Positions 10,879 through 26,537 are shown, counted from the first letter of the stretch. The stretch is 64,000 nucleotides of DNA from Acutalibacteraceae bacterium (GCA_045591225.1 JAZNSL010000056.1:19123-83122), one strand, 5' to 3'. Notes: a model not told the origin generated them from the letters alone. A program made the numbers and translations.

Positions 10879-11487
10879 ATGAGTAACACAAGTCTTGCCA
10901 ATAGAATAAAAGAGCAAATTAATCGCTCTAAATATGGGACAGTATTTGTTTCTGTGGATTTTGCTGAATATGCAGACAAGAGTAGAATTGGCGTGATTTT
11001 GTCACGTCTTGAAGCAGATGGGATGATTCGTCGCATTTTGCGTGGGGTCTATTATAAACCCGAATACAGTCAATTCCTTCAAGAATATATTGCTCCGCTT
11101 CCGGATGATGTTGCACATGCTATTGCACGAAATTATGGGTGGACAATCGTTCCTTGTGGAGATACCGCATTAAATCTTTTAGGATTGTCCACACAAATCC
11201 CTGCAGCTTGGGTTTATGTGAGTGATGGTAAATACGAGAAATATTCTTACGAAAACACAACCATTCAGTTTAAGCATACAACTAACAAAGAGATTTCTAA
11301 ACTTTCGTATAAAACAGCATTGGTCGTTCAAGCACTAAAAGCTTTGGGAAAAGAAAATGTTAAAGATGCAATGATTAAAAAATTACAGTCTACCTTGACT
11401 TTGCCTGAAAAAGAGGCAATGTTGCTGGAGGCAAAAGCAGCAACATCATGGGTCTATGAATATATTAAATTGATTTGTAGAGGTTAA
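10879..11487 (+). CDS. abiEi: AbiEi-family antitoxin (type IV TA/abortive infection)
   Basis: 202 aa. The N-terminal wHTH-like segment is GTVFVSVDFAEYADKSRIGVILSRLEADGMIRRILRGVYYKP. The gene sits 4 nt upstream of the AbiEii gene. Confidence 0.7.
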   Translation: MSNTSLANRIKEQINRSKYGTVFVSVDFAEYADKSRIGVILSRLEADGMIRRILRGVYYKPEYSQFLQEYIAPLPDDVAHAIARNYGWTIVPCGDTALNLLGLSTQIPAAWVYVSDGKYEKYSYENTTIQFKHTTNKEISKLSYKTALVVQALKALGKENVKDAMIKKLQSTLTLPEKEAMLLEAKAATSWVYEYIKLICRG

Positions 11488-11491
11488 ACTT

Positions 11492-12490
11492 ATGCGTAAC
11501 ATAGCTAAATTGAGCGAAAAAGAGCGAAAGGCGCTCTTTCAAAATACAGCTGCAAAGATGGGACTTACAAATGCCATTATCGAAAAAGATTTTTGGGTTT
11601 GTTTTATGCTAGACTATTTGTTCCATCGTTGTAAGTGGAAAGATAATATTGCATTTAAAGGCGGTACAAGCCTTTCGAAGTCCTATAGTCTCATTGAGCG
11701 TTTTTCTGAAGATATCGATTTAATTCTGGATTGGAGAGTTATTGGTTTTTCTATAAATGAGCCGTGGGAAGAGCGTAGTAATACCAAGCAAGATGTTTTT
11801 AACAAAGAGGCAAATAGGCGTACTGAGGAATTTTTAAAGGAAACCTTTATGCCTCGAATGATTTCTGATCTACAAGAAGAACTAAACACGTCTATCAATT
11901 GTTATATTGAAGAAACAGACCCTCAAACGGTGGTGTTTGCGTACGATCGTAGCTTTGATGATTCTGCCATTTTGCCGGTTATTCGTCTTGAAATTGGTGC
12001 TTTAGCAGCATGGACTCCAGCGGAGCATCTTCCCATTACATCGTATGCGGCCAAACAATATCCGCAATTGTTTCAGGAACCTAGTACAAGCGTTTTAACA
12101 GTGCTCCCTAAACGGACTTTCTGGGAAAAGGTTACTATTTTACATCGCGAAGCATATAGACCTGACGATAAAGCATTTCCGCCGCGGTATTCTCGGCATT
12201 ACTATGATTTGTATTGTATGATGAATTCTCCAGTGAAAGAATCTGCTTTTGCTGACATTGATCTGTTGACAAAAGTTGTAGAGTTTAAAGAGAAATTCTA
12301 TCGTTGCTCTTGGGCCCGATATGATGAAGCCAAAGTAGGAACGATGAAACTGCTGCCTCCCGAAAGAAATCTACCGGTTTTGAGAGATGACTATAATCAT
12401 ATGCAAAATATGATATTTGGTGATAAACCTGATTTCGATGTGATTTTGCAGGGCGTTGGACAACTTGAGAAAGAAATAAATGCGCTTTGA
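11492..12490 (+). CDS. abiEii: AbiEii/AbiGii-family nucleotidyltransferase toxin
   Basis: 332 aa. FKGGTSLSKSYSLIERFSEDIDL is the characteristic NTase motif of DUF1814/AbiEii. Confidence 0.8.
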   Translation: MRNIAKLSEKERKALFQNTAAKMGLTNAIIEKDFWVCFMLDYLFHRCKWKDNIAFKGGTSLSKSYSLIERFSEDIDLILDWRVIGFSINEPWEERSNTKQDVFNKEANRRTEEFLKETFMPRMISDLQEELNTSINCYIEETDPQTVVFAYDRSFDDSAILPVIRLEIGALAAWTPAEHLPITSYAAKQYPQLFQEPSTSVLTVLPKRTFWEKVTILHREAYRPDDKAFPPRYSRHYYDLYCMMNSPVKESAFADIDLLTKVVEFKEKFYRCSWARYDEAKVGTMKLLPPERNLPVLRDDYNHMQNMIFGDKPDFDVILQGVGQLEKEINAL

Positions 12491-12569
12491 ATCGTTACAT
12501 TATGTAATGTTTTTCGTTGCAATAACGATTACAAGGACTGTAAAACCCTTTGTGGAAGGAATGTGTATT

Positions 12570-13502
12570 ATGAGTGATTTGTATATCAATAAGTGCAAAG
12601 CGTTCATAGGTTTTATGCTTTCGCAACAACAGTGGTCTGGTATCACACAAGCCAATATTGATTCTTGGATAAGCAATTTTAAAGGGCTGAGCCAAGAGGA
12701 ACAAAAGTTGGTTTATAAGTTACTTACAAACATTATATACTTTTCCGAAAATGATATTGTAGATGCGTTGAAAATGGGAGTCTATAAATGTTTGTCATAT
12801 GGGAGTATCCTTGCAAGACAAAAAGAATCCAATTTTTCAACAAGTCCGCATACTTTGCAGAGTGTTCATAATTCCAATGTGAACAAGGCGTGTTTTGTTC
12901 CTTTGCTAGATAGTGGTGGACCTCATGAAAGTGCAAACAATATGTGTCGCATATTAGTACAGCAAGGGATTATTCCTAGTGGAAAATCAATGTTTTTGGA
13001 TCAAGTTCCTGCATTGTTGCGGTCGGGTCAAGTAAATAATTTGGTGATAGTCGACGATTGTGTAGGTAGTGGAGATCAATTGAGGACATTTTGGGAAGAA
13101 GCAAGAGTTATTGACGAAGGCGTTTCGGTTTCTATAAGAGAATTGTGTGAAAAGTACCACGCAAATGTTAACTACCTTACTTTATTTGGGTACAATAAAA
13201 GTATTGCTGACTTAAGGAGTGAGTTTCCGGGTTTAAATATTTTTTGTGTGCGTGAACTTAACGATCAACATCGGGTGTTTTCTGCTTCTTCATATATGTG
13301 GGAGAATGAAGAAGAGAGAATCAAAGCCTTTACTTTATTTAATTCACTTGCCCAAAATGCTGGAATACCCATATATGGACATAAGGATTTGGATTTTGCT
13401 TTTATTATGCATAAAACTATTCCTGATTGGTCTCTTCCTATATTTTGGAAAGAGAATAGCGATTGGAAACTGTTGCTGAGGAGGAAAAATTCTCATGACT
13501 AA
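12570..13502 (+). CDS. phosphoribosyltransferase-like (PRTase-fold) protein
   Basis: The PRPP-loop-like motif is LVIVDDCVGSGDQL. I chose start ATG 12570 for RBS spacing (ggaagga). The stop overlaps the next gene (ATGACTAA). Confidence 0.55.
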   Translation: MSDLYINKCKAFIGFMLSQQQWSGITQANIDSWISNFKGLSQEEQKLVYKLLTNIIYFSENDIVDALKMGVYKCLSYGSILARQKESNFSTSPHTLQSVHNSNVNKACFVPLLDSGGPHESANNMCRILVQQGIIPSGKSMFLDQVPALLRSGQVNNLVIVDDCVGSGDQLRTFWEEARVIDEGVSVSIRELCEKYHANVNYLTLFGYNKSIADLRSEFPGLNIFCVRELNDQHRVFSASSYMWENEEERIKAFTLFNSLAQNAGIPIYGHKDLDFAFIMHKTIPDWSLPIFWKENSDWKLLLRRKNSHD

Positions 13503-15420
13503 TCAATACAACCCTTTTAAAGAAAATCGCACCGAGCAAATGCGCGATCTATGGAAATATTATGTACCTTTCCCAGGATTGGATGCTGCGGGGAAACCTT
13601 TAGTAGTAGAGGGCGGTCGTGGAAGTGGGAAAACTATGTTTTTTCAATGCAATTCTTGGCGCCAAAAAATCCTCGAGTTCCAAAAGAGTAGTAAGCCCAT
13701 TACTAATCTCATTGATAGCGAAGACTTCATAGGTATTTATTATCGTGTTGATACGACATTTGTATCATCAATGCGTGAGCGCGAAGAAGAGAATTGGGGA
13801 GCTATTTTTGAAACGTATTTAGGGATATGCATTTTGAAAGAGATTCTCGATTTGATTAGCACTCTAAATCAAAGTATGGCATTGAACGAAAGCGCTTTAT
13901 CTGATTTCTCGCTGGCATTTTCCAAAAAATTAAACACAAATAGTACTACGGATTCAATCGAGGCGTTTCGAAAGGATTGCGATGTTTATTTAGACATCAT
14001 AGAGGATAAGATAAATGGCTCCGAAACATTATCAAATCTAAGGTGTATAAATGCCAACCGATTTATCACGGATGTATGTGTTGCAACCAGAGAATTGCTG
14101 GGAGAAGAAGAGTTACTGTTTAAGATTTTTATCGATGAATACGAAACATTGCAAGAATATCAACAAAAAATAGTTAACACGTTGATAAAGCATAGTTCAC
14201 TTCCTGTGATTTTTAACATTGGATTACGTCCGGAAGGAATGAAAACAGCGGAGACTATTTCTGAGACGGAAACGATTGAAGCACCTCATGATTATGAATT
14301 GCTATTACTAGGGTTTGATCAAGACCAGTATCCTCAAATAATTAAAGCTATCTGTCAAAAACGTATTGCACTGGGAAAAGAACAGGGCAAAATACCTGAA
14401 TCTGCTTCTGATGATATCGAGTTTTATCTAGGAAACTATTCACTGGAGGAGGAATTGGAAAAGATTAATCAAACTAGCAAATCATTGCCTCACATAGAGA
14501 AACTACGCAAACTGATTTTGGAAAGAGCACCAGAGGAAGGAATCGCTGAGTATGATGTAGAGCAATATTGTCGAGTATTATGTGACGAAGCTCCCATATT
14601 AAATTCTCGAATGCACTACGCTTTGTTGTGTAAAAAAACGCAGTATACTCCGAGCATTCAAGATTTGTATGCATTTTATACAACTCTTGATAAAAGGTAC
14701 AGTGATTGGTTGCATAACAGGAAAAACGGCGTGATTTATTTGTTGTGCAAAGAGACTAAGCGTGACAAAATGTATTTTGGTTTTGATGTTTTTTCGGCAT
14801 TGTCTTCGAACATTGTTAGATATTTCTTAGAACTTTGCGAGCAGTCGTTTAAAATTGCCTTCTTGAACGATTACGATTGGACTACGAGAATTCCTCCAGA
14901 AATACAAACAGAGGCGGCACGTTACGTAAGCGAGTACAAAATTGTTGATATTGCTGGATATGAACCGTACGGAAAAGAACTGCGAATATTTGTTCAATAT
15001 TTGGGCCAAATGTTTAACAAATTGCATACGGCAGAAGATAGCACGTTAGGAGAACCGGAGCCTAATCATTTTTTTACCAAAGATTTATCGTTACCTGATG
15101 AGTCTAGAAAAAAGATCGCATCTGCAATTATGTGGAACGTCTTGCAAGAGGGAGAAACTACCAAGAAGAAGCAATCAAAATTGTCTCCTGAAACCGTGGA
15201 CTATTATTTGAATAAAATTTACGTTCCGTATTTTGGAATATCCTATCGCAATCAGCGGAAAATATTCCTTTCGGTTGATATTTTGCAAGAGCTTTTTTCT
15301 GGAAATGAAGAATTGGCTACATCTGGATTCAAAAAATTCTTCAGGGGAGATTCGGTGCCTGAGGCGGATGGTAGCCAACTTAATTTTTTCAATGTGGGGA
15401 CGGAGGAGAACGATGATTAA
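13495..15420 (+). CDS. P-loop NTPase (AAA+/STAND-like), 641 aa
   Basis: Walker A is VVEGGRGSGKTMF and Walker B-like is LFKIFIDEYETL. It has 8-nt start/stop overlaps with both neighbours. Confidence 0.65.
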   Translation: MTNQYNPFKENRTEQMRDLWKYYVPFPGLDAAGKPLVVEGGRGSGKTMFFQCNSWRQKILEFQKSSKPITNLIDSEDFIGIYYRVDTTFVSSMREREEENWGAIFETYLGICILKEILDLISTLNQSMALNESALSDFSLAFSKKLNTNSTTDSIEAFRKDCDVYLDIIEDKINGSETLSNLRCINANRFITDVCVATRELLGEEELLFKIFIDEYETLQEYQQKIVNTLIKHSSLPVIFNIGLRPEGMKTAETISETETIEAPHDYELLLLGFDQDQYPQIIKAICQKRIALGKEQGKIPESASDDIEFYLGNYSLEEELEKINQTSKSLPHIEKLRKLILERAPEEGIAEYDVEQYCRVLCDEAPILNSRMHYALLCKKTQYTPSIQDLYAFYTTLDKRYSDWLHNRKNGVIYLLCKETKRDKMYFGFDVFSALSSNIVRYFLELCEQSFKIAFLNDYDWTTRIPPEIQTEAARYVSEYKIVDIAGYEPYGKELRIFVQYLGQMFNKLHTAEDSTLGEPEPNHFFTKDLSLPDESRKKIASAIMWNVLQEGETTKKKQSKLSPETVDYYLNKIYVPYFGISYRNQRKIFLSVDILQELFSGNEELATSGFKKFFRGDSVPEADGSQLNFFNVGTEENDD

Positions 15421-16327
15421 AGAAGAGTACTCGTTTTGCCATATTGAAGATTATTTGTATGATAATATCGATTTGCTTATTGCAGGATTTGCAACCGCGG
15501 AGGAACGAAGCGGTTATTTTTCAGAATTATGGACAATCAAGAACAAAGATGTCCTCTTCCTTATGTTAGACGGCAACGAAACTGTTGTGTACCGATTTGT
15601 TCGTAATAACAATGTTGTGATGAAGGGTAGATGTGATCTTTGCGTTGGATTACCAAGGATATTAAGCCAAATTGGTATTGTTGAAAAAGAGGTATTACTT
15701 GATATGTCAAGCCTTGATAATGTATTGATCATGTTCATCACTAAACAATTGTTGACGAAAGTAACTCCCCGATCTTTTTTTGCATCGTATATTAGACCTG
15801 AAAAATATGTTAGTGAATCAGGAAATATAGGTTATGAATTATGTCAACAAATCGGCGCTGTTGATGCAGTCCCTGGCTTTGCAAAAAGAGAAACTGATAA
15901 TCAAACCTTATGTGCTTTTCTGGGCTTTGAAGGCGTTCGGTTAAAAGGCGTTTTGGAAGCTGTACACAGTTTTGAAAAATTAATACCTATTGTGGCTTTC
16001 CCTTCCGGCACACCACAATGGTATAACGTCACAATGTGGAATAGTATGGACATCCTTCAAAGCGAGGGGAAAAACCTCTCTGTTCACAAGTGTTATTCGG
16101 AAAGTGTATTTGAGGCGTTTGACCTTCTAAATAGCACTATCTCGCAAGATGAGACCGTTGTCTTGGCACCACTTGGAACGAGACCACATTCTATGGCTTG
16201 TGCCATTTATGCGTGCCATCATGGAGCCACGAGAATAGTATATGATTTTGTAGTAGAGAATGATCGTCGAGCAATGGGGATTGCAGACATAACTGTTTAT
16301 CATCTTTCTTCGTTTATTAAATCATAG
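15413..16327 (+). CDS. hypothetical protein, third gene of the operon
   Basis: 304 aa from MIKEEYSFCH, with RBS ggaggag and an ATGATTAA overlap with the ATPase gene. I recognise no motif with confidence. Confidence 0.55.
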   Translation: MIKEEYSFCHIEDYLYDNIDLLIAGFATAEERSGYFSELWTIKNKDVLFLMLDGNETVVYRFVRNNNVVMKGRCDLCVGLPRILSQIGIVEKEVLLDMSSLDNVLIMFITKQLLTKVTPRSFFASYIRPEKYVSESGNIGYELCQQIGAVDAVPGFAKRETDNQTLCAFLGFEGVRLKGVLEAVHSFEKLIPIVAFPSGTPQWYNVTMWNSMDILQSEGKNLSVHKCYSESVFEAFDLLNSTISQDETVVLAPLGTRPHSMACAIYACHHGATRIVYDFVVENDRRAMGIADITVYHLSSFIKS

Positions 16328-16344
16328 GTAAAGGGGGTGAGGAT

Positions 16345-17406
16345 ATGGATTATAGCAAGTTCTATACTCCGCCTGAAATCGCAACTGCTCTAGTTAAGGA
16401 GCTTTCTATTCCTGCACCACAAAAAATCGTTGATATTTGTTGTGGAAGTTGCAATTTGCTTTTTGCAGCTAAAAAGCGATGGGCTGAAGCAAAACTATAT
16501 GGAGTGGATGTAGCAGAACAGTGCTTTACTGAAGATGTGATGTTTGAAAAAGGGGATGGCAGACAATTTGCAATTAAGCATCCCCGAGAATTTTCTTTGG
16601 TTGTGGCCAATCCTCCTTTTGACTATGTCAAGAGAAAGAAAGAATTTCCAAAACTATTCACGCAAGAGTTTGAGGATATTTCTACTTCTCGTTTGGAAGT
16701 AGAAATGCTAATAGCTAATTTGAAACTTTTGCAACCAGCTGGAGTTTTGTTGGTTATTGTGCCAAGCAGTTTGGTTGAAGCCAAAACGCATCAAAAAATC
16801 AGAAAAGTTGTTGCAGAGCATTATTTCGTTGAAAGCATAATAAAACTTGATGAATCCACTTTTGGTGCTTCCAAAATCAATAGTTACGCATTGATAATAC
16901 ATAATGAATTGCCAAATAACCAAACAACAAAATTGGGACATTCAGTCGGAAACCGTATCTCATATACAGCGTCTCTTGGGAGTGATAGCCTTAAAGAAGG
17001 CAATTGGACCATTGGTAATGTGCATAACGGTTTGCTTACTATGGAAATTAAACGAGGAAATATCTCTAGCGCTTCTTTTCTCACTAGAGGTCAACCCATT
17101 TTGCATACTGCCAAATGTAGCAGCCGTTGGAAACCTAGCAAAAGATATATTTCAACGAAAGTTGTTCCTACCGTTTTTGCGGAAACAGGAGATATAGTCG
17201 TGAGCCGAATTGGTAAATCGGCTGGACAATGGTGTGTGTATAATGGCCCCAAAACTCCAATTTCGGATTGTTTATATCGTATCAAGGATCCTGATGGTTC
17301 AATAGCAAATTTGATCAGTGGAAAAACTTTTGATAGGGCTTTAAAAGGGGTTGCAACGAGATATATAACTATAGACGATTTATGTATGTGGTTATCGAGT
17401 CAGTAA
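16345..17406 (+). CDS. N6-adenine DNA methyltransferase (gamma class, TaqI/Eco57I-like)
   Basis: FYTPPEIA, motif I VDICCGSCNLL and motif IV VVANPPFDY are present. The C-terminal ~150 aa are a plausible target-recognition domain. Confidence 0.8.
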   Translation: MDYSKFYTPPEIATALVKELSIPAPQKIVDICCGSCNLLFAAKKRWAEAKLYGVDVAEQCFTEDVMFEKGDGRQFAIKHPREFSLVVANPPFDYVKRKKEFPKLFTQEFEDISTSRLEVEMLIANLKLLQPAGVLLVIVPSSLVEAKTHQKIRKVVAEHYFVESIIKLDESTFGASKINSYALIIHNELPNNQTTKLGHSVGNRISYTASLGSDSLKEGNWTIGNVHNGLLTMEIKRGNISSASFLTRGQPILHTAKCSSRWKPSKRYISTKVVPTVFAETGDIVVSRIGKSAGQWCVYNGPKTPISDCLYRIKDPDGSIANLISGKTFDRALKGVATRYITIDDLCMWLSSQ

Positions 17407-17926
17407 AAGGCTAAAAATTCTTATAGATGGCCACTAAAAGAGGCGACAACTACATATGCGACATGGCTTGATAAACGCTCGATTCTCAACATTTCTAACA
17501 GTGTATAAGTTTATATAACTCTACGTTTTTCTGTGCGAAAACGGCGTAGAGAAAGCTAGTGAAAAGTTTGCAACAAAGGGTATCTTGCTACAAAAAAGCC
17601 ACCCAGCGGTGAGTCCTTTTGGGCTTATCGCTGCGTGCTTTTTATCGCGCATTCTTCTTGTACGCTATGGTATATGTTTACCAATCACACTTTGCTGCTT
17701 TGTGGCTATTGCCATATTACAATCGTGTGCGAGTTGCGTGATATGTTCTTTTAATATCTTGTCTTCTATATTGAATTGATATATCGCATAATGTGAAACG
17801 ACTTTAAAATTATTATGGAAATTTGGACTAAATAAGTTGATATATTTGACGGAATTTGCTAATATTGTACTAAATGATTCTGAAGCGTCACATCTGTTTA
17901 TGGAAAATGTTATGAGGAGGTTCCAA

Positions 17927-19126
17927 ATGAATCAGGAAGCTAAATTACTGGATGCTTTTAACCAAAAAGCATTTCAAGAGGAACTAACATCTGTTCGCTT
18001 GAAAATTGAATCTGAATTGAATACCTTTCTAACATATTTGAAAAAGCGATTATTACCAGAGCAGAAACTGTTTGACAACATTGAATCCCGTATCAAATCA
18101 TTGGATAGTTTTAAGGAGAAGATACATAGAAAAGATTATCTTCATATTTGGGCAATAGAGGATGATATAGTAGCGAATCAACGTCTTATTGCTACAAACT
18201 TACCTGACTTGATTGGTTTTCGGATAAATTGCTTTTTCTGGACAGATGAAAGTAAAATATATAAAATTCTTGAAGAATACTATAAGGAAGACAATTTCCC
18301 CAATTTTCAACTTGATTTTTCTGAGAATAAAACGCAGAAAAATGGACATACAATTTACAAACTTACAGGGAAATACTCAAACCCATTCGATGGGGATAAA
18401 GCGTATAACTTTGAAATACAGATAAAGTCAATTATGCATAACATCTGGGGTGAGGTTGATCATAAAACTATTTTTAAGAGTAGGGAATATGATGCGGACT
18501 GTTCAAGTAAAAAAGTAATTACCGAAGAGTTGTTTCACATCTTACAAGCATCTGATAAACAACTACTTACTTTATTGGGCAGAAAAAACGAAGAAAAGCG
18601 TTTGATATATTCACTTTTCTACAGTCAAACTAAGGAACAAATGATGAAAAAGTGTGGGACAGATATTTTGGCATCACATTACACAGGCTTTTTTGATTTT
18701 TTTGAAAAACACGAACCAACATATAGTTGCATTAAAAAATATGTTGCGCACACTCTTTTGGGAAAACCATATAATCGAGAATTACTGAATAAACTAGAAC
18801 CTAATGAAAGAATATCTCGTCTCCAAGCATCAATTTCTCGTGAGTTTTATCAGTATAATTTGCGGTGTATATTCTGTATTTTTGATTTGTTATACTCAAC
18901 AATTGATACTCCAGATCCCCTTGAGGAGGATTTGTTCAAGAACTTTCTAACTCATTTATCCGCATGGGCAATTGAGTTCGCCGGCGTGGGAGAAGATGAA
19001 GACTGTGAGGAGTTTGATGAGTTTGATTCTGACGATCTAAAGTCTGATGAAACGGCTTATAAAGATTCCACTGAAGATATTCTTAGATTTCTGAGTCAAA
19101 GGATAGGGGGGCGGAAAAATGATTGA
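17927..19126 (+). CDS. RelA/SpoT-homologue (small alarmone synthetase-like nucleotide pyrophosphokinase) with acidic C-terminal tail
   Basis: Synthetase motifs are IESRIKSLDSFKEKIHRK, DLIGFRINCF and FEIQIKSIMHNIWGEVDHKTIFK. The tail is EDEDCEEFDEFDSDD. RBS gaggagg lies 6 nt before ATG 17927. Confidence 0.7.
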   Translation: MNQEAKLLDAFNQKAFQEELTSVRLKIESELNTFLTYLKKRLLPEQKLFDNIESRIKSLDSFKEKIHRKDYLHIWAIEDDIVANQRLIATNLPDLIGFRINCFFWTDESKIYKILEEYYKEDNFPNFQLDFSENKTQKNGHTIYKLTGKYSNPFDGDKAYNFEIQIKSIMHNIWGEVDHKTIFKSREYDADCSSKKVITEELFHILQASDKQLLTLLGRKNEEKRLIYSLFYSQTKEQMMKKCGTDILASHYTGFFDFFEKHEPTYSCIKKYVAHTLLGKPYNRELLNKLEPNERISRLQASISREFYQYNLRCIFCIFDLLYSTIDTPDPLEEDLFKNFLTHLSAWAIEFAGVGEDEDCEEFDEFDSDDLKSDETAYKDSTEDILRFLSQRIGGRKND

Positions 19127-20150
19127 TATAAAACAACACGGTAAACATCATCTGGTCCAAACTCAAAAAACCGTTGAATGGCTAGTCACTCATACGGAAG
19201 TAGCGGTATTTGATCCCATTACTTTTCAAGGTTATCAAAGGCAGATAGATGATAAACATTGCGCTAGAATTGTAGATTTCCTGAAAAAAGATGATTTCTT
19301 CCTTCCTACAGCAATTGTTTGTGCGGTCAATGGAGTTTTAAACGAGGATACCGTTTTGCGCATTGTAGATGGACAGCACCGAGTGAAAGCGTTTGAAATG
19401 CTTCGAACTTGTGATACAGATCGTTTTCAACAGATAAAAGATTTCGAAGTACCGGTTATTATTTTAGTTGATGTTGATGAAACAACAGAAATAGATACTT
19501 TTATTACCATTAACAAGACTTCTAAGAAAGTTGATACTTCTCTTGCACTGGTTTTGAGAAATAAAATTAATAAATATTCTGATCCAGAAACCCTTTCTAT
19601 GTCTAAGGCTGAGTATGTAGCAGTGGAACTAGCACAAGAATTATGTTTCAACGAAACACTATCTACTTTGTGGACTAATCGGATCTCATTTGATGGTCCA
19701 CCTAAAAATTCTTATCAGTTAATAAGTCTTAATGCCTTCGTTAAATCAACTCGACAACTACTGAGCAGATTACATCGTAACCAGCTCATTTCGTTGTCGT
19801 GGACAGATAGGAAAGAATTGGATGAATGTCTCAATGCTAGTCGTGATATAATTCTCTTCATTTGGAACACTATCCGTAATAAATGGCCAAAATTATTTGG
19901 CTCATACATTGAGGAACAACGAATCATTCAGGGGGCTATTGGGTATTCGGCGTTTAATCGTGTAATTATGAGTTTAATTGATTCTTATCATATTAATGAT
20001 GTGGATACTCTGCTTAAAAAGTTTGCTTATGCTATTAGTAACATTTCGATTTCTGAGGAGAAATGGCTACCTGGCGGAGAGTTTTCTAAATATTCCTCCG
20101 AATCAGGCTATCGCATTGTTGCTCAGGAATTGATTCGTAGTATGGAGTAG
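19119..20150 (+). CDS. DGQHR-domain protein (DndB/ParB-Srx superfamily)
   Basis: Contains FQGYQRQIDDKHCARIVDF ... LRIVDGQHRVKAFEML. The start overlaps the upstream stop (ATGATTGA). Confidence 0.7.
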   Translation: MIDIKQHGKHHLVQTQKTVEWLVTHTEVAVFDPITFQGYQRQIDDKHCARIVDFLKKDDFFLPTAIVCAVNGVLNEDTVLRIVDGQHRVKAFEMLRTCDTDRFQQIKDFEVPVIILVDVDETTEIDTFITINKTSKKVDTSLALVLRNKINKYSDPETLSMSKAEYVAVELAQELCFNETLSTLWTNRISFDGPPKNSYQLISLNAFVKSTRQLLSRLHRNQLISLSWTDRKELDECLNASRDIILFIWNTIRNKWPKLFGSYIEEQRIIQGAIGYSAFNRVIMSLIDSYHINDVDTLLKKFAYAISNISISEEKWLPGGEFSKYSSESGYRIVAQELIRSME

Positions 20151-20482
20151 TTATTGAATTTCCTCTATGCCTGAATGGTGAAATACAAATATTAATGATA
20201 AGACCGGCAAGGTGTTCCACCCTGCCGGTCTTACTCTACAGACGTATCAATTGACAATCTCTCGACACTACAATCTTACACATACATGTCGGCAAGTTTC
20301 TGTAACTTGTTGGAAACCGCCTAAAAGCAGGAGTTCGTTTCTAAGGCCGTGAAGAAATTTGCTTTTTCACTTATCTGATTGGCTATGAGAGGTTGCCCTT
20401 TTTCCTCGGTTTTGCTAAGACCCTGCTACACCTACACAGCTGGACCTTAGCAATGGTTTTTATGTGCCGAATGCACACGGAC

Positions 20483-21268
20483 TTATGTTTTTGGGGTACT
20501 ATCCCAAATGAGTTTTAGAAAACTGACAGGCATCTTCCCGAAAATTGTTTCATACTTACACTTGAAGAATTGTTCCTTCTTTTCTGTTAACGGGATGTAT
20601 CCTTCTCTGCAAATTGTTTGCAACTGATCTTCTATACGCTGTCTTTCTAATGCGAAGGAATGAAATTCATTCAGTGTATCATATTCGCTTTGTTTCGATA
20701 TAGCTGTGAGCCTATCTAAGTAAACACTTTCTTGTAATGCTGAATACAACGCCTCAATCTCTAAGAGATTATTGCAAACAATAACAAAGTCATCTATCAG
20801 TTTTTCGAGTTGCTGATCATTCACACGGTTAATCGATCGTTTGATTCTGTCAACAGATTTGTTTACCGCAACCCGGTAGGAAACGGTTTCTGATAACAAC
20901 TTATATGCATCTTTTTCTGAGAGCATATCAATGAAAGCATATCGCAAATTACTCGGATGGATTTCGTCAAGACAATTGTCGATTACCTCCTCGACTTCTT
21001 GCCAGGTTTTCTGCGCTAACTGAATGTTCTGTTGATGGCTTATCTGTGATACTGTAATGCCTACTCCGATTGCAAAAGTTGCGGCAGCTACTAATGCACC
21101 TAGCACAGATCCATAGTAGCTCAACACGTCTGAAGCATCCCATTTTGTGTAAATAATCGGATTGTTACAAGAATAGCACCAGTTAATTATAAGAGGGACA
21201 CCGATTACCAGTATCACAACCACAAATAAAGAAGCCATTATGTGTGCAGAAACTTTTTTTCGCTCCAT
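20483..21268 (-). CDS. membrane protein with two N-terminal TM helices and a long helical C-terminal region
   Basis: Start MERKKVSAHIMASLFVVVILVIGVPLII has RBS aggaggtg 7 nt upstream. The second TM is VLGALVAAATFAIGVGITV. Confidence 0.55.
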   Translation of the reverse strand: MERKKVSAHIMASLFVVVILVIGVPLIINWCYSCNNPIIYTKWDASDVLSYYGSVLGALVAAATFAIGVGITVSQISHQQNIQLAQKTWQEVEEVIDNCLDEIHPSNLRYAFIDMLSEKDAYKLLSETVSYRVAVNKSVDRIKRSINRVNDQQLEKLIDDFVIVCNNLLEIEALYSALQESVYLDRLTAISKQSEYDTLNEFHSFALERQRIEDQLQTICREGYIPLTEKKEQFFKCKYETIFGKMPVSFLKLIWDSTPKT

Positions 21269-21293
21269 TGATATACACCTCCTGATGGCATTT

Positions 21294-21944
21294 TTAAGCA
21301 ACATATTTTACCCTCAAAACATTTTTGGAAAACTGAGGCTTATATAATTTGTTCGAGGCAAGTCGGAAGTGAGGTGTTACTGAAAAAATAAAAAAACGAT
21401 TAAGTTTTACTCCTAGTGCACTGTACTTTGTACAAAAACTTATCATACTATGTATAAATGAATCTGCACATGCTTTTTGATTTATGCTTGTATCATTCCA
21501 TTTTTCACATATAGACACCATTTTACTTCCATTCTTGTAATCCTTATGCCGTTTTTCGTTTTCATACATTGCCACAAATCGTCCCTTCGATTCTATAGAG
21601 CCAAAAAGTTCCTTTGGTATACGATTAATGAGATTTTTTAAAAATACATTGATTTGGTTTGTTTTTGCAATCCGATCAGAACTAATTCTCTTGATTAGCG
21701 AAAAAAATAAAATAAGCCTATAGTCTTTGCCTAGTGATTTACTGTGCACACCTTGTTTGTTTAAGTTGCCTTTATTAAAATCGCCTATAAACCATTTTGT
21801 TCCATTGTTCGTCGTTAAACGCGTGCATTTACTTAAAGTGGTTTTTGATGCTTTGCCCACTTCCCCTATGTCAATAATGTACAAACAAAAAATAGATTTT
21901 TCAAGAGATTGATGATTCGATAAATCGGAAATAAAGCTACACAT
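21294..21944 (-). CDS. hypothetical protein (upstream partner of the 2-TM protein)
   Basis: 216 aa with RBS aggaaggagg upstream. No confident motif; LYIIDIGEVGKASK..RL gives only a weak GIY-YIG/T5orf172-like impression. Confidence 0.45.
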   Translation of the reverse strand: MCSFISDLSNHQSLEKSIFCLYIIDIGEVGKASKTTLSKCTRLTTNNGTKWFIGDFNKGNLNKQGVHSKSLGKDYRLILFFSLIKRISSDRIAKTNQINVFLKNLINRIPKELFGSIESKGRFVAMYENEKRHKDYKNGSKMVSICEKWNDTSINQKACADSFIHSMISFCTKYSALGVKLNRFFIFSVTPHFRLASNKLYKPQFSKNVLRVKYVA

Positions 21945-22086
21945 TTTCAGCGTTTCCTCCTTCCTAAATATTTAGGGAGATTTCCATATGGAACGGCCAC
22001 CTACGCGGGCTCCTGTTAAGGAGCCCGCGAGGCTGTCGGTTTGCACAACGTGCGATGGAGGTAAGTCCGATGGACCCATTTATGTT

Positions 22087-22272
22087 TTAGTGATCGCTGG
22101 ACCAGAGGGAATCAGCGGCTTCATTCAATAAACACCACTGAAGATAGGCAGTCAATCCGAATCGTTGGATCATGGCTTGTGCTTCAGTTTGTGCCTTCAG
22201 AGAACCGTCGAGGGCGCTTTGGTCGGTGGGCTCAGGCTTACCTTCAATGGGCACATTCCGATAATGTTCCAT
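22087..22272 (-). CDS. small hypothetical protein
   Basis: 61 aa from MEHYRNVPIEGK with RBS AAGAGGTGA 5 nt upstream. The segment is locally richer in GC than its surroundings. Confidence 0.35.
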   Translation of the reverse strand: MEHYRNVPIEGKPEPTDQSALDGSLKAQTEAQAMIQRFGLTAYLQWCLLNEAADSLWSSDH

Positions 22273-22388
22273 AAAGGTCACCTCTTACTATTCAATTGTC
22301 TCAGCGATTATGCTGCCAGTGGGGTTTGCGCATACGGTAATGCCAATCTTGGTTTTCTATTGCTGGTTGGATGTCCTTCACAAAGAGC

Positions 22389-23237
22389 TCATTCTACTAC
22401 TTTTTGTTTAACCTCCTCTGTTAGATTTGACTTCTTTCCGGAAGTCACACGGCACACAAGATTTACAGGGAATTTGAGGCCGTCTCCATTTCCCTCCTCA
22501 ACATTTGTACCTAACGGGGGGATAATAATCTGGTCATCGAAACTAACCCCATCTGATGTGTTTAGAATAGCTACTTTATATGCTAAATTAGGAACAAGTT
22601 TAAGCCTGTCACGAGCTGCGGCGGAGTTTGTAAATAAAAAGTAAACGGTTTGATCGTTCCAGAGTGTAATGGCTTTAGCTAGGCCTTGTACACCCCGTTT
22701 CCATGCTCCTTCAGTATCGTTGTCATCACAGAGCGCCGGAATACAAGCGAGAGTCCAACCGTCCACTGCAGAACAGATTGCAAACAAATTAGGTGTTCTG
22801 TAATCAATGTTAAACTGCTTTCCATAACCCAATGATTCTAGTTGCTCAACAAGCATTGTCAATAACCCTGCTGGTTTTTTAATCGTTATAGCGCATAAAT
22901 CTTTTTCGGAATTTGTTGCTATGCCAACCGGCTCATTACGAAATTTTGCAAGATATTCCACTGCTGCAGCCGGATATCCACATGCCTTTAGCATTTCATC
23001 AATCATTTTGGGGTTGTTTGAGCCAGCAAGTCGATAGATTGAACGAATTGAAGGTGGTGCGACCAAATTGCCATTAAGCAATCTGCTGACAAGGGAACGG
23101 CTTAACTTGGTTTCTTCGCAAAACGCTTGGATACTCTTTGTTCCTAAAACAGATCTACATAGGAGAGCGAGTTTCTTTGAATCAAATCTAACTGCATTAG
23201 TCGCCTCGATGGAGGCATTAATATCATCGCTGTTCAT
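22389..23237 (-). CDS. HTH-domain protein with uncharacterised C-terminal domain
   Basis: Start MNSDDINASIE has RBS GAGGAG. The HTH-like segment is IQAFCEETKLSRSLVSRLLNGN. Confidence 0.5.
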   Translation of the reverse strand: MNSDDINASIEATNAVRFDSKKLALLCRSVLGTKSIQAFCEETKLSRSLVSRLLNGNLVAPPSIRSIYRLAGSNNPKMIDEMLKACGYPAAAVEYLAKFRNEPVGIATNSEKDLCAITIKKPAGLLTMLVEQLESLGYGKQFNIDYRTPNLFAICSAVDGWTLACIPALCDDNDTEGAWKRGVQGLAKAITLWNDQTVYFLFTNSAAARDRLKLVPNLAYKVAILNTSDGVSFDDQIIIPPLGTNVEEGNGDGLKFPVNLVCRVTSGKKSNLTEEVKQKVVE

Positions 23238-23832
23238 TTTGTACTCCTCATAAATAATAGTGAAATGGTGTATCTGTCTAAAGCAAGTCGCACACGAAAA
23301 GTACATATAAATGTACATTGCCAACTAGTGTGCATGCTTCTTGTATATATAATAATACAAAAAATGGTTGCTGTCAATAGAAAAATCATAGAATCTCCTT
23401 AAAAATGCACAAAAATGCACACAAATACTTATTTTGCTTTATGGCCGTTTTAGAAGGGCATTCTATAGGTCTTATGCATACAGCATAAAAGCAAAATCAT
23501 TATGCTCTGAAATGATTTTTGTTTGCACTATCTCCGTCTCGTTTTAGTAAAAATTCGTAGCGGGAAAATCAAGTTGAAATATTCAATCCGATCTGATAAT
23601 ACGGATGGCAACGTGGCTGGAGAAATTGCATTACAGTAATTTTGTATTTGGCGGCAGAGAGTTGTGTTTCTCTCTGCCGCCTTTTCATGTAGATGGAAAT
23701 CGTAAAATGTGATATAATTATCCAAAGTATACCGCAAAATGAGATTAATTGAATTTCGTGTAATCTTTTGCGTGAGGAAATGATTGGTTGTTTCGTGTAA
23801 CAGGTGAAAGAACTGCGAATGGAGGTGTGTAT

Positions 23833-25832: not shown

Positions 25833-26537
25833 TTAAGTCGTTTCCTCTTTTAGTTCTCGTTTATACTTGTAGTACGAATTCCTAGAAATCTTGCAAAGAG
25901 TCATCACCTCCTTATCACTGAGAGTGCCACCAAAATCTACGGAGTGTTTCTGAATAATGCTTTTGCATTGCAAAGATTTTTGAGTCACTAGAGTGGTTCC
26001 TTTAGTGAGACCGATCTGTTTGCCGTTCCTTTTACTCTCTCGCATACCCTGACTGATACGCGTGTGTAAGTCGGTAACTTCTTTCTCGGATTGTTGGAAA
26101 GCGGATTTGATTTGTTCTTCAGCCAATGCCATAAGCAGGTTGTTAATCAGCGTGATGTTCCCCGTGAAGTAATCGTCGATGGCTGTGTTGCCAGTCTCAA
26201 CTGAGATTTCTAGCAGATTGGTTTTTGTGGAATCAAAGATGGAAGTGTTGATGAGTGGCTCGTTAAGAAATATCAAATTGATACCGGCTTCATATAGCAT
26301 TTTATAATCTTTAAATCCCTCTTCAGCATTACGGGACATACGAGACACGCTATCAAACACGATGGTGTCTTCAGGTTCTAATTGCTTGATGAGCTTGTCC
26401 CACTTGGGCCTGCTCTGTGTGGTGCCGGTGTAGAACTCTTTAATCAGTGTGGCTTCAGGATATAACTCAGTGATGTTTGTAACCTGACGAGTAATCCGTT
26501 GATGTTTGGTGCTGACACGACAATAACCATAAATCAT
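25833..26537 (-). CDS. small serine recombinase (resolvase/invertase family)
   Basis: 234 aa. Has MIYGYCRVSTKHQ (catalytic Ser), DSVSRMSRN and a C-terminal HTH. Confidence 0.85.
   Translation of the reverse strand: MIYGYCRVSTKHQRITRQVTNITELYPEATLIKEFYTGTTQSRPKWDKLIKQLEPEDTIVFDSVSRMSRNAEEGFKDYKMLYEAGINLIFLNEPLINTSIFDSTKTNLLEISVETGNTAIDDYFTGNITLINNLLMALAEEQIKSAFQQSEKEVTDLHTRISQGMRESKRNGKQIGLTKGTTLVTQKSLQCKSIIQKHSVDFGGTLSDKEVMTLCKISRNSYYKYKRELKEETT

What the first reader, a model, noticed from the sequence alone, without database searches (positions are those of the whole stretch)
17927..20150. Translationally coupled RelA/SpoT-like synthetase plus DGQHR (DndB/ParB-like) protein
Gene 1 has a complete small-alarmone-synthetase motif set (RIKSLDSFKEKIHRK, DLIGFRI, EIQIKSIMHNIWGEVDH) followed by a strongly acidic tail (EDEDCEEFDEFDSDD). 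Gene 2 overlaps it by 8 nt (ATGATTGA). It carries the YQR...VDGQHR signature of DndB-type ParB/Srx-fold DNA-binding NTPases. Toxic RelA/SpoT homologues (toxSAS, CapRel) are established growth-arresting and antiphage effectors. Their known partners are small antitoxins or fused domains. I do not know of a DGQHR partner. No dnd or ssp sulfur-modification genes are nearby. A DNA-sensing ParB-like protein controlling a nucleotide or tRNA pyrophosphokinase would be a new architecture.
Basis: partly seen in the sequence, partly recalled or inferred. Interest (0 to 1): 0.8.

Follow-up and report, generated by a model that had tools for sequence, protein, structure and literature searches.

The report
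Alarmone-synthetase-like enzyme paired with ParB-like protein
Two overlapping genes, a RelA/SpoT-type pyrophosphokinase with an acidic tail and a DGQHR (ParB-like) nucleotide- and DNA-binding protein, form a mobile two-gene cassette conserved across gut and dairy Firmicutes; it is probably an undescribed toxin-type or anti-phage module, but nobody has tested what it does.

Summary
Gene 1 (17927-19126) has a RelA_SpoT domain. Gene 2 (19119-20150) is a DGQHR-domain protein. They overlap by 8 nt.

The pairing is not chance. In 67 of 70 fetched loci with enough downstream DNA, a gene-1 homologue is followed on the same strand by a gene-2 homologue, spaced -32 to +26 nt. Hosts include Clostridia, Erysipelotrichaceae, Streptococcus, Enterococcus, Trichococcus, Lactococcus plasmids and Campylobacter. 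No third gene is conserved and no dnd, dpd or ssp genes are nearby. The two protein trees are congruent (r = 0.90).

Gene 1 keeps the ATP/Mg catalytic residues but usually has His where other synthetases have the acceptor-stacking Tyr. It also has a family-specific helical C-domain and a disordered acidic loop with a conserved D-x-F-[DSG]-[DE] motif. Gene 2 is a separate DGQHR subfamily, not DndB or DpdB.

In this window the pair sits in a low-GC defence island. On Lactococcus plasmids it lies between an Abi gene and the LlaJI restriction system. Gene 1 is frameshifted independently in at least four lineages while gene 2 stays intact.

Best reading: a conflict module with an RSH effector controlled by the DGQHR protein. 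The closest precedent is PANGU (a nucleoid protein plus a toxSAS with a DNA-mimic domain). Function is untested. I rate it a new variant of a known kind.

The parts
17837..17865 (+). Promoter-like site (TTGATA-17-TAATAT with TG extension), about 60 nt upstream of gene 1
   Evidence: Consensus scan. A terminator-like hairpin at 17604-17633 lies between the upstream methyltransferase gene and this site. This suggests the pair is its own transcription unit, but it is a consensus match only.
17927..19126 (+). Gene 1: 399-aa RelA/SpoT-homologue (RSH) pyrophosphokinase
   Evidence: ORF with RBS. PF04607 at 47.8 bits. 114 homologue clusters, all with the same architecture. AF2 model pLDDT 88.3.
17927..18496 (+). 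SYNTH (nucleotidyl/pyrophosphate-transfer) domain, residues 1-190
   Evidence: Invariant R55 K57 K65 R68 D94 G97 R99 E163 Q165 K167 W174 H179 in 47 homologues. Foldseek best matches are RelP/RelQ (E 1e-7, TM 0.6-0.69 on the target), then FaRel2 at 8e-5 and CapRel at 1e-3. The G-loop reads NGH-x-IYK, with His in place of Tyr.
18497..18982 (+). Family-specific all-helical C-terminal domain, residues 191-352
   Evidence: Confidently predicted helices with no structural match in the PDB. It occurs in only 63 clusters (50% identity) among 1.84 billion representatives, always behind an RSH domain. It is the fastest-evolving folded part, with 29% mean pairwise identity.
18983..19057 (+). Disordered acidic loop, residues 353-377, with the aromatic motif D-x-F-[DSG]-[DE] (EDEDCEEFDEFDSDD = 18992-19036)
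   Evidence: pLDDT below 50 for residues 355-377. F366 is nearly invariant. The motif is present in nearly all of 29 non-redundant homologues and is repeated five times (DDEFDEIE) in Trichococcus. The C-terminal half carries a net charge of -5 to -34 in 27 of 29.
19058..19123 (+). C-terminal amphipathic helix (about residues 375-393, the last residues of the loop onwards) and basic end (IGGRKND)
   Evidence: Helix 375-393 is predicted with pLDDT around 90. The IL-x-x-L...IGGRK pattern recurs in close homologues.
19119..20150 (+). Gene 2: 343-aa DGQHR-domain (ParB/Srx-fold) protein, start overlapping the gene 1 stop by 8 nt
   Evidence: TIGR03187 at 90 bits, above cut-off. It scores far below the DndB, DpdB and DGQHR_dnd_1 cut-offs. 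58% mean column identity over 43 homologues. Invariant positions include G38 Y39 Q40 R41, V83 D84 G85 Q86 H87 R88, and most of the F128-A143 stretch FITINKTSKKVDTSLA. AF2 pLDDT 87.5. Only weak fold matches, all ParB-N, PadC, sulfiredoxin, KorB or SspE.
19368..19382 (+). DGQHR signature codons (residues 84-88)
   Evidence: Read directly from the sequence. Invariant in alignment A2.
20198..20234 (.). 17-bp G+C-rich hairpin 48 nt after the gene 2 stop, a likely end of the transcription unit
   Evidence: The scan listed it on the minus strand, and the T-run is weak on the plus strand.

Best explanation
The two genes form a self-contained, horizontally mobile conflict module of the toxin-antitoxin / abortive-infection type.

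Gene 1 is the effector. It is an RSH enzyme that, when unleashed, transfers pyrophosphate from ATP to a nucleotide (making an alarmone such as (p)ppGpp or (p)ppApp) or to tRNA 3' ends, and so arrests growth.

Gene 2 is an NTP-binding, DNA-associated ParB/Srx-fold switch. It is made in fixed proportion by translational coupling and controls gene 1 by direct binding.

The likely handle is gene 1's helical C-domain together with its flexible acidic, Phe-containing loop. The loop would act as a nucleic-acid or nucleotide mimic that occupies the DNA- or NTP-binding surface of the DGQHR protein. A change in the DNA that the DGQHR protein sees (foreign, modified or degraded DNA) would then be converted into release or activation of the enzyme.

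Shown: domain identities, conserved catalytic residues, strict pairing, mobility, the conserved acidic motif, and asymmetric decay of gene 1.
Inferred: toxicity, the product, physical interaction, DNA sensing, and whether gene 2 restrains or activates gene 1.
For: 1. Strict conserved bicistron.
- 67 of 70 loci carry the partner.
- Spacing is -32 to +26 nt in 29 non-redundant pairs.
- The two families have congruent divergence: pairwise-identity r = 0.90.
- Jimmy et al. 2020 (PMC7229694) found that such conserved TA-like arrangements of SAS genes predict toxicity.

2. No conserved third gene or small ORF.

3. Mobility and defence context.
- In the window the pair lies in a low-GC island.
- That island holds AbiE, a PRTase-CE/ORC-CDC6-like/CARF-like/methylase cluster, a TIR protein, an RHS toxin and recombinases.
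- On Lactococcus dairy plasmids it lies between an 'abortive infection protein' and the LlaJI R-M system.
- Elsewhere it lies next to ToxN, AbiEii and an SLFN-like helicase, or next to AlwI R-M and helicases.

4. Catalytic residues of the SYNTH domain are invariant. The fold matches RelP/RelQ, FaRel2 and CapRel.

5. Gene 1 is disrupted independently in L017, L020, L024 and L075-77 while gene 2 stays full length. The reverse was never seen. L075 has a 10-nt deletion between AAAATA repeats.

6. Gene 2 is highly conserved, with invariant QR / DGQHR / IN-x(6)-D-x-SL motifs. This fits an NTP-dependent switch, not a simple plug.

7. The acidic loop with a conserved Phe is repeated fivefold in one lineage.

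8. Precedent: PANGU Pag1B is a toxSAS with an acidic DNA-mimicking C-domain that is bound and activated by a DNA-binding protein.

9. DndB-like proteins bind ATP/GTP. DUF262/ParB-type domains act as DNA sensors in SspE and GmrSD.
Against: - There is no experimental datum for this family.
- In several lineages the cassette sits among housekeeping genes such as DegV, glycosidases, an MCP and sugar ABC transporters. Defence-island enrichment is not demonstrated statistically.
- Neither gene matches a PADLOC system model beyond DpdB-like similarity.
- The acceptor-stacking Tyr, which is essential in FaRel2, CapRel and Pag1B, is replaced, usually by His. The enzyme may therefore have another substrate or lower activity.
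- The DGQHR proteins are near neutral overall, and DNA binding was not tested.
- The acidic loop is predicted disordered, and I could not run a complex prediction.
- The asymmetry in pseudogenes rests on four or five events (P about 0.05-0.09 under equal hazard). Some of them are in MAGs.
Confidence: 0.6

Rival explanations
1. Classical toxSAS toxin-antitoxin pair. Gene 1 is constitutively toxic. Gene 2 is simply its antitoxin, acting either by sequestration (type II) or by enzymatically destroying or reversing the product (type IV, like the SAH antitoxin of FaRel), using the ParB/Srx-fold nucleotide-hydrolysing pocket. No DNA sensing is involved. Activation would come from loss of the antitoxin.
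For: - The overlapping bicistron is typical of TA loci.
- Gene 1 decays while gene 2 is retained, as expected if the toxin cannot be kept without its antidote.
- toxSAS families are known to recruit unrelated antitoxins, including an enzyme.
- ParB-superfamily proteins have been proposed to degrade nucleotides (PMC10853773).
Against: - Gene 2 is large (343 aa) and much more conserved than gene 1: 46% against 43% (N-domain) and 29% (C-domain) mean pairwise identity in the 29 pairs, and 58% against 34% mean column identity in the two larger homologue alignments. Type II antitoxins usually show the opposite pattern.
- The retained DGQHR NTP-pocket motifs and the DNA-associated family history argue for more than a plug.
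- This rival does not explain the conserved acidic aromatic loop.
Confidence: 0.2
2. Signal-and-effector system. The variable C-domain of gene 1 senses a phage protein, as in CapRel, and switches on the SYNTH domain. The resulting nucleotide is a second messenger that binds the NTP pocket of the DGQHR protein, which then acts on DNA by clamping, nicking or degrading it. Gene 2 would be the effector, not the controller.
For: - The C-domain of gene 1 is the fastest-evolving folded part (29% identity), as expected for a sensor in an arms race.
- Gene 2 is conserved like an enzyme.
- ParB-fold proteins bind CTP, ATP or GTP, and some are nucleases.
- By structure the SYNTH domain is closer to the alarmone-making RelP/RelQ than to the tRNA-modifying toxSAS.
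Against: - No ParB/Srx-fold protein is known to read (p)ppNpp.
- No nuclease motif was identified in gene 2. Fold matches are weak and limited to the ParB/Srx core.
- If gene 2 were the killing effector, decay should hit gene 2 at least as often as gene 1. It never did.
Confidence: 0.12
3. Ordinary physiology. Gene 1 is an accessory small alarmone synthetase for stress responses, like RelP/RelQ. Gene 2 is its DNA-binding transcriptional regulator, as DndB is for the dnd operon.
For: - The best sequence and structure matches of gene 1 are RelQ/RelP.
- Some copies lie among housekeeping genes.
- A sister clade of 450-460-aa RSH proteins stands alone in housekeeping contexts.
- DndB is a repressor (PMC4507180).
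Against: - Distribution is patchy across phyla, including Campylobacter.
- The pair is carried on a low-GC island and on mobilisable or conjugative plasmids.
- Gene 1 is pseudogenised repeatedly.
- The neighbourhoods differ at nearly every locus.
- A repressor does not need translational coupling, invariant NTP-pocket motifs or an acidic docking loop on its target enzyme.
Confidence: 0.08

Closest known systems
PANGU type I (Pag1A YejK/NdpA-family nucleoid protein + Pag1B GRel toxSAS), bioRxiv 10.64898/2026.04.06.716658
   Same: - A two-gene operon.
- The effector has an N-terminal RSH SYNTH domain, a helical connector and an acidic C-terminal region.
- The partner is a DNA-associated protein of about 340 aa.
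- The partner is a regulator and not a small antitoxin.
- Partner and effector co-evolve.
   Different: - The partner here has a ParB/Srx-fold DGQHR domain, not NdpA. No NdpA hit was found.
- Gene order is reversed: the effector comes first.
- The acidic element is a disordered 20-60-residue loop with a Phe motif, not a folded DNA-shaped domain.
- The RSH subfamily differs. It occurs in Firmicutes and Campylobacter, whereas GRel is gamma-proteobacterial. The G-loop Tyr (Y129 in Pag1B) is replaced.
- Decay of gene 1 with retention of gene 2 hints at restraint instead of pure activation.
toxSAS toxin-antitoxin modules (FaRel2/ATfaRel2, PhRel2/ATphRel2, FaRel/SAH, Phrann gp29/gp30), PMC7229694
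   Same: - An RSH SYNTH-domain protein in a conserved, often overlapping bicistron on mobile DNA.
- Catalytic Asp and Glu residues are retained.
   Different: - None of the six described antitoxins is a DGQHR or ParB-fold protein.
- Gene 1 carries an extra 200-aa C-terminal domain.
- Sequence profiles reach only RelP/RelQ in the PDB, not FaRel2 or CapRel.
- Toxicity is untested.
CapRel SJ46 (fused toxSAS-antitoxin phage sensor), PMC9712102
   Same: - An N-terminal SYNTH domain followed by a C-terminal regulatory domain in one polypeptide.
- The C-terminal region is variable.
   Different: - CapRel works alone. This family always has a separate partner.
- The C-domains are unrelated: the Foldseek match to 7ZTB is weak (E 1e-3, rmsd 24 Å).
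DndB / DpdB (DGQHR proteins of phosphorothioation and 7-deazaguanine DNA-modification systems)
   Same: - The DGQHR domain (TIGR03187) with the QR and DGQHR motifs.
- A helical C-terminal half.
- Family members bind DNA and ATP/GTP.
   Different: - Scores are far below the DndB (15 vs 328), DpdB (53 vs 300) and DGQHR_dnd_1 (54 vs 450) cut-offs.
- No dnd or dpd genes were found at any of about 80 loci.
SspE and GmrSD/BrxU (DUF262 ParB-like NTPase sensor fused to a DUF1524 nuclease)
   Same: - The logic is the same: a ParB/Srx-fold NTPase domain reads the state of DNA and licenses a toxic effector.
- There is weak GmrSD_N similarity (E 4e-4).
   Different: - The effector here is a separate RSH enzyme, not a fused HNH/DUF1524 nuclease.
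- The motif is DGQHR, not DGQQR.
- Sensing of modified DNA is not shown.
RelP / RelQ housekeeping small alarmone synthetases
   Same: - They are the best sequence and structure matches of the SYNTH domain.
   Different: - RelQ equivalog score is 33 against a cut-off of 320.
- Gene 1 has an extra C-domain and an acidic loop.
- It has an obligate DGQHR partner.
- It is mobile and patchily distributed.
- The G-loop Tyr is replaced.

Membership tests
RelA/SpoT homologue (RSH) SYNTH domain, Pfam PF04607 | Profile match above the gathering score | tested here: met
   47.8 bits against a cut-off of 27, residues 54-186. All 114 homologue clusters are annotated PF04607.
RelA/SpoT homologue (RSH) SYNTH domain, Pfam PF04607 | ATP-binding R-x-K...K/R motif, Mg-binding Asp (DxxG-x-R) and catalytic E-x-Q | tested here: met
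   R55 K57 K65 R68 D94 G97 R99 E163 Q165 are invariant in 47 sequences and align to the RelQ/RelP motifs.
RelA/SpoT homologue (RSH) SYNTH domain, Pfam PF04607 | G-loop Tyr that stacks on the pyrophosphate acceptor (Y128 FaRel2, Y155 CapRel, Y129 Pag1B) | tested here: not met
   The aligned position is His141. It is His in 22 of 29 homologues, otherwise N, R, K, F or M. A Tyr three residues later (Y144) is present in 22 of 29.
toxSAS (toxic small alarmone synthetase of a TA module) | Conserved bicistronic or tricistronic arrangement with a specific partner | tested here: met
   67 of 70 loci carry the partner, with a gap of -32 to +26 nt.
toxSAS (toxic small alarmone synthetase of a TA module) | Toxicity on expression, neutralised by the partner | not testable with these tools
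   Only indirect evidence: at least four independent disruptions of gene 1 with gene 2 intact.
toxSAS (toxic small alarmone synthetase of a TA module) | Assignment to a named SAS subfamily (FaRel, FaRel2, PhRel, PhRel2, CapRel, GRel, FpRel2 and others) | not tested
   The subfamily HMMs and datasets are not held. The host range (Firmicutes plus epsilon-proteobacteria) resembles that listed for fpRel2 in PMC3153485, but this is only a lead.
PANGU type I | Sensor is a YejK/NdpA-family nucleoid-associated protein | tested here: not met
   Gene 2 matches the DGQHR/DndB and ParB families only. No NdpA family appears in the Pfam or NCBIfam results.
PANGU type I | Effector is a toxSAS with an acidic DNA-mimicking C-terminal region bound by the sensor | tested here: inconclusive
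   The acidic C-terminal half and a conserved acidic Phe loop are present.
DGQHR domain family (TIGR03187) | Profile match above cut-off, with the DGQHR motif | tested here: met
   90 bits against a cut-off of 58.85. VDGQHR is invariant. RefSeq annotates homologues as 'DGQHR domain-containing protein'.
DndB (DNA phosphorothioation regulator) | Equivalog score and dndCDE(A) neighbours | tested here: not met
   TIGR03233 scores 15.4 against a cut-off of 328. No dnd genes appear at any locus.
DpdB (7-deazaguanine DNA modification) | Equivalog score and dpdA/dpdC neighbours | tested here: not met
   NF041060 scores 53 against a cut-off of 300. No dpd genes are nearby.
ParB/Srx fold | Structural similarity of the N-terminal ~130 residues | tested here: inconclusive
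   All top Foldseek hits are ParB-N, PadC, sulfiredoxin, KorB or SspE, with probability 0.87-0.98 for the top five (lower for the KorB and SspE hits), but E is at least 0.02. The sequence profiles (DndB, GmrSD_N, phrog ParB-like) agree.
Anti-phage defence system | Enrichment next to known defence genes and protection from phage | tested here: inconclusive
   The defence context is clear in the window and in L003, L075 and L080. Other loci are housekeeping. No statistics were possible, and protection is untestable here.

The most novel reading that the evidence does not exclude
The DGQHR protein is a sensor of DNA state (foreign, modified or damaged DNA). It gates a RelA/SpoT-type pyrophosphokinase through competition between DNA and the enzyme's own acidic, Phe-bearing nucleic-acid-mimic loop. 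This would be the first ParB/Srx-fold-controlled alarmone or tRNA-pyrophosphorylation immune system. It would also be a second, independently evolved case of the PANGU principle, in which a DNA-binding sentinel plus a DNA mimic on a toxSAS read out the state of DNA. The atypical His G-loop might point to a new acceptor substrate.
Probability: 0.3. Interest if true: 0.8.

Novelty: new variant of a known kind. Interest (0 to 1): 0.64.

Why it matters
RSH enzymes used as weapons (toxSAS, CapRel, PANGU) are a young field, and each new controller has revealed a different way in which cells detect infection. DGQHR/DndB-type proteins are known only as accessories of DNA-modification systems, and their biochemical role is disputed.

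An obligate pairing of the two would give DGQHR proteins a readout (growth arrest or alarmone synthesis) that makes their ligand and DNA specificity testable. It would add a partner class to toxSAS biology. It would also identify an unannotated resistance determinant on dairy Lactococcus plasmids and in abundant human- and animal-gut Firmicutes. The conserved acidic Phe motif offers a simple mutational handle.

Tried and rejected
1. A linker-fused gene1-gene2 paired alignment (A3) for AlphaFold, to see whether the acidic loop orders on the partner.

2. The idea that the pair belongs to the upstream same-strand cluster (PRTase-CE, ORC-CDC6-like, CARF-like, methylase). Rejected for three reasons:
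- There is a 520-nt gap with a terminator-like hairpin and a separate promoter-like site.
- None of those genes accompanies the pair elsewhere.

3. A conserved third gene or small antitoxin ORF. None was found: at most 4 of 132 neighbours share a family, and no small-ORF cluster occurs in more than 2 of 29 loci.

4. Membership of the Dnd, Dpd or Ssp systems. Rejected (and the neighbourhoods).

5. A phage origin. There are no hits in 50,697 phage genomes for gene 2 and only 25-27% identity RSH hits for gene 1. IMG/VR scans found only distant relatives.

6. Modularity of the gene 1 C-domain with other effectors. None: all 63 representative clusters have the same architecture.

7. Assignment to a named SAS subfamily through the supplement of Jimmy et al. 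The files are not held.

8. A sequence search of gene 2 against the PDB gave no hit. The fold search was only weakly informative.

9. Literature searches for RSH + DGQHR/DndB/ParB pairs found no description. The only prior co-occurrence noted is RelA-SpoT and DdrB-type ParB domains inside Helicobacter prophage polyvalent proteins (PMC5512222), which is a different architecture.
Full report
**1. The observation**

The window holds two same-strand ORFs exactly as described.
- Gene 1 runs from ATG 17927 (AGGAGG 7 nt upstream) to TGA 19124-19126 and encodes 399 aa.
- Gene 2 runs 19119-20150 and encodes 343 aa.
- The gene 2 ATG lies inside the last codons of gene 1, so they share the 8 nt ATGATTGA.

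Profile searches confirm both domain calls.
- Gene 1 matches Pfam RelA_SpoT (PF04607) at 47.8 bits against a cut-off of 27.
- Gene 2 matches the NCBIfam DGQHR domain model TIGR03187 at 90 bits against 58.85, and Pfam DndB at 45.3 against 29.1.
- Gene 2 scores far below the equivalog cut-offs for DndB (15 vs 328), DpdB (53 vs 300) and DGQHR_dnd_1 (54 vs 450). It is a DGQHR protein of a separate subfamily.

**2. Anatomy of gene 1**

An alignment of 47 homologues (A1) shows these positions to be invariant: R55, K57, K65, R68, D94, G97, R99, E163, Q165, K167, W174 and H179. They correspond to the ATP-binding R-x-K...K, the Mg-binding DxxGxR and the catalytic E-x-Q-x-[RK] motifs of RelQ/RelP (alignment).

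There is one departure. The G-loop reads NGHTIYK. The residue aligned with the acceptor-stacking Tyr of 'SGYRSYH' is His141. It is His in 22 of 29 non-redundant homologues, and Tyr144 is present in 22 of 29. That Tyr is reported as essential in FaRel2, CapRel and Pag1B.

The AlphaFold2 model is confident (mean pLDDT 88.3). It shows four parts:
- an alpha/beta SYNTH domain, residues 1-190;
- an all-helical domain, residues 192-351;
- a disordered stretch, residues 355-377 (pLDDT below 50), which is the acidic segment;
- a well-predicted terminal helix, residues 375-393.

Foldseek against the PDB gives RelP/RelQ first (E 1e-7 to 1e-5, TM 0.6-0.69 on the target). FaRel2 follows at 8e-5 and CapRel at 1e-3. 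Nothing matches the C-terminal domain. A profile search of PDB sequences also reaches only RelQ/RelP.

The C-terminal domain is specific to this family. A full HMMER scan of 1.84 billion representatives found 63 clusters (50% identity). In all of them the match lies behind an RSH domain in proteins of about 380-400 aa, or in fragments.

The acidic loop is variable in length but conserved in kind.
- F366 is nearly invariant.
- A D-x-F-[DSG]-[DE] motif occurs in nearly all of 29 non-redundant homologues.
- It is repeated five times (DDEFDEIE) in a Trichococcus protein.
- The C-terminal half carries a net charge of -5 to -34 in 27 of 29 proteins.

**3. Anatomy of gene 2**

The family is strongly conserved: 58% mean column identity over 43 sequences. 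Invariant positions include G38 Y39 Q40 R41, V83 D84 G85 Q86 H87 R88, most of the F128-A143 stretch FITINKTSKKVDTSLA, several Trp residues, and a conserved C-terminal SKYSSESGY segment in which S327 and G330 are invariant.

The model is confident (pLDDT 87.5). It has an N-terminal alpha/beta part and a helical C-terminal half.

No PDB sequence matches. Foldseek finds only weak hits (E at least 0.02), but the leading hits (ranks 1-12 and several below) are ParB-N, PadC, sulfiredoxin, KorB or SspE, with probability 0.87-0.98 for the top five. PHROGs and Pfam add ParB-like and GmrSD_N similarity.

From the literature:
- DndB is an ATP-modulated DNA-binding repressor (PMC4507180).
- A DndB-like protein binds ATP and GTP (bioRxiv 10.1101/2025.10.10.680097).
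- The related DUF262 domain acts as the DNA-state sensor of SspE and GmrSD (PMC12065111).

**4. Is the pairing real?**

Homologue searches returned 114 clusters for gene 1 and more than 300 for gene 2, with many shared contig lengths.

I fetched loci through exact-protein look-ups, a scan of GTDB species representatives (18 loci), a metagenome scan (41 loci) and plasmid records. I scored them with HMMs built from A1 and A2.
- Of 70 loci with at least 500 nt downstream of a family RSH gene, 67 have a DGQHR gene directly after it on the same strand.
- The three exceptions are a truncated remnant (L021), a low-coverage fragment (L065) and an outgroup RSH of Clostridium butyricum (L081).
- In 29 pairs that are less than 90% identical, the spacing is -32 to +26 nt.
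- Starting from the DGQHR side (P0151, P0228, Lactococcus plasmids), the upstream gene is again the RSH.
- Pairwise identities of the two families correlate at r = 0.90, as expected for co-inheritance as a unit.
- A sister clade of 450-460-aa RSH proteins (P0114, C. butyricum) has no DGQHR partner and sits among housekeeping genes. The association is therefore specific to this clade.

**5. Nothing else belongs to it**
- Among 132 flanking proteins from 24 non-redundant loci, no Pfam or PADLOC family is shared by more than four.
- No small ORF within 600 nt is conserved in more than two of 29 loci.
- No dnd, dpd or ssp genes occur.
- In the window, the upstream same-strand genes are separated from gene 1 by 520 nt containing a terminator-like hairpin (17604-17633) and a promoter-like site (17837-17865). 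A strong hairpin follows gene 2 at 20198-20234.

**6. Where it lives**

Hosts named in the records:
- Dorea, Lachnospiraceae, Oscillospiraceae, other Clostridia, Christensenellales, Erysipelotrichaceae, Streptococcus mitis and Campylobacter;
- Trichococcus;
- Enterococcus thailandicus;
- two Lactococcus dairy plasmids.

It is essentially absent from phage collections.

In this window the pair lies in a 46-kb low-GC segment (0.33-0.45 against 0.55-0.58 in the flanks). That segment is a defence island on an integrated element. It contains:
- AbiEi-like DUF6088 plus AbiEii;
- PRTase-CE, an ORC-CDC6-like ATPase, a CARF-like protein and an N6 methylase;
- a TIR protein;
- an RHS toxin;
- a tyrosine integrase and two serine recombinases.

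Other contexts:
- On plasmid pLLNCDO702C the pair sits between an 'abortive infection protein' and the LlaJI restriction system.
- Other copies lie beside ToxN, AbiEii and an SLFN-like helicase, or beside AlwI R-M and helicases.
- The commonest gut lineages carry it as a clean two-gene insert among housekeeping genes.

I could not compute an enrichment statistic, so the association with defence islands is suggestive only.

**7. A hint about direction of control**

Gene 1 is disrupted independently in at least four lineages while gene 2 keeps full-length profile coverage:
- L017, frameshift near residue 110-128;
- L020, near residue 261-274;
- S. mitis SK569 (L024), two frameshifts;
- a widespread Erysipelotrichaceae lineage (L075-77), where a 10-nt deletion between AAAATA repeats splits off the first 55 codons.

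No locus shows the reverse. With genes of similar length this asymmetry has a probability of roughly 0.05-0.09 under equal hazard, so it is weak evidence. It is what one expects if gene 1 is costly or toxic and gene 2 is harmless or protective.

**8. Mechanism**

The best-supported reading is a TA-like or abortive-infection module.
- The RSH enzyme is the growth-arresting effector.
- The DGQHR protein is its stoichiometrically co-translated controller.

The high conservation and intact NTP-pocket motifs of gene 2, and the DNA-linked roles of its relatives, argue for an NTP-dependent DNA-associated switch and against a passive plug.

The conserved acidic, Phe-bearing flexible loop on gene 1 is a plausible nucleic-acid or nucleotide mimic that docks on gene 2. 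This parallels PANGU type I. There the toxSAS Pag1B carries an acidic DNA-mimicking C-domain, and it is bound and activated by the nucleoid protein Pag1A once phage nucleases release Pag1A from the chromosome.

Open questions:
- Whether gene 2 restrains gene 1 (favoured by the pseudogene asymmetry) or activates it (as in PANGU).
- The product. Structural proximity to RelP/RelQ and the lack of a markedly basic SYNTH domain (net charge -10 to +7) lean towards nucleotide alarmones. tRNA pyrophosphorylation is not excluded, and the His G-loop allows for a different acceptor.

The rivals are set out in the rival-explanations section with their confidences: a plain TA pair with an enzymatic or sequestering antitoxin, a signal-plus-effector system with gene 2 as effector, and ordinary stress physiology.

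**9. Comparison with what is known, and novelty**
- Gene 1 is a member of the RSH SYNTH family by profile and catalytic residues, with an atypical G-loop.
- It fits the operational predictor of toxSAS (a conserved bicistron, PMC7229694), but toxicity is untested and the subfamily could not be assigned.
- It is not a PANGU system, because the sensor family differs.
- Gene 2 is a DGQHR-domain protein but is neither DndB nor DpdB.
- PADLOC 2.0 has no model for gene 1.
- RefSeq calls gene 1 homologues 'hypothetical protein' and gene 2 homologues 'DGQHR domain-containing protein'.
- Eight full-text searches found no description of this pair.

I therefore rate it a new variant of a known kind: an RSH-effector conflict module with a new class of partner. 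The function still has to be shown experimentally.

Noticed in passing
window 10000-56000: A segment of about 46 kb with G+C 0.33-0.45 lies inside flanks of 0.55-0.58. It ends at a large serine recombinase (55811-57481) and also contains a resolvase (25833-26537, minus strand) and a tyrosine integrase (35273-36187). It is probably an integrated mobile element, or a composite of several, carrying a defence island.
   Followed up: partly
window 10879-12490: An AbiE-type pair: a DUF6088 protein (AbiEi-like, E 1.5e-36) followed by the AbiEii nucleotidyltransferase toxin (E 5.7e-36).
   Followed up: partly
window 12480-17406: A four-gene same-strand cluster with overlapping ends: PRTase-CE (PF24390), an ORC-CDC6-like ATPase (PF24389, E 2e-106), a protein matching PADLOC 'CARF6' models (E 8e-35) and an N6 adenine methyltransferase. 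It looks like a separate, poorly characterised defence system.
   Followed up: partly
window 33378-35125: A TIR-domain protein (361 aa) converges on a small P-loop protein with weak ABC-3C CTD5 and nSTAND3 similarity. This is a possible further defence gene pair.
   Followed up: no
window 38340-43222: A same-strand run of NTP_transf_5, a thymidylate-kinase-like protein, an unannotated 348-aa ORF, an AMP-binding (adenylating) enzyme and a CYTH-domain protein. It is a nucleotide-centred cluster of unknown role.
   Followed up: no
window 48529-54181: A 1664-aa RHS-repeat protein with Big_2 and DUF6531 domains, followed by a 207-aa ORF with no family match. This is a likely polymorphic toxin and immunity pair.
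   Followed up: no
window 20483-23324 (minus strand): Three ORFs downstream of the pair (273, 216 and 311 aa) match no Pfam, PHROG or PADLOC family at a meaningful level. The first has a predicted N-terminal hydrophobic segment. The first two also follow the pair in the near-identical contig L001.
   Followed up: partly
L081 3893-5989 (Clostridium butyricum megaplasmid NZ_CP073278.1): A sister-clade 460-aa RSH (35% identical over the SYNTH domain, G-loop NGFTIYR) has no DGQHR partner. It is followed 193 nt later by a 2'-5' RNA ligase-family (2H phosphoesterase) gene. I did not check whether this is a conserved alternative partner.
   Followed up: partly
L002 8001-9233 (Trichococcus sp. chromosome): The acidic loop of the gene 1 homologue contains five tandem copies of DDEFDEIE. 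This looks like expansion of a short linear binding motif. An IS (DDE_Tnp_1) lies directly upstream.
   Followed up: partly
L075 4990-5020 (Erysipelotrichaceae isolate GCA_027662775.1): A 10-nt deletion between AAAATA direct repeats frameshifts the RSH gene after codon ~55. This disrupted allele, with an intact DGQHR gene, is seen in well over a hundred contigs in public data.
   Followed up: yes
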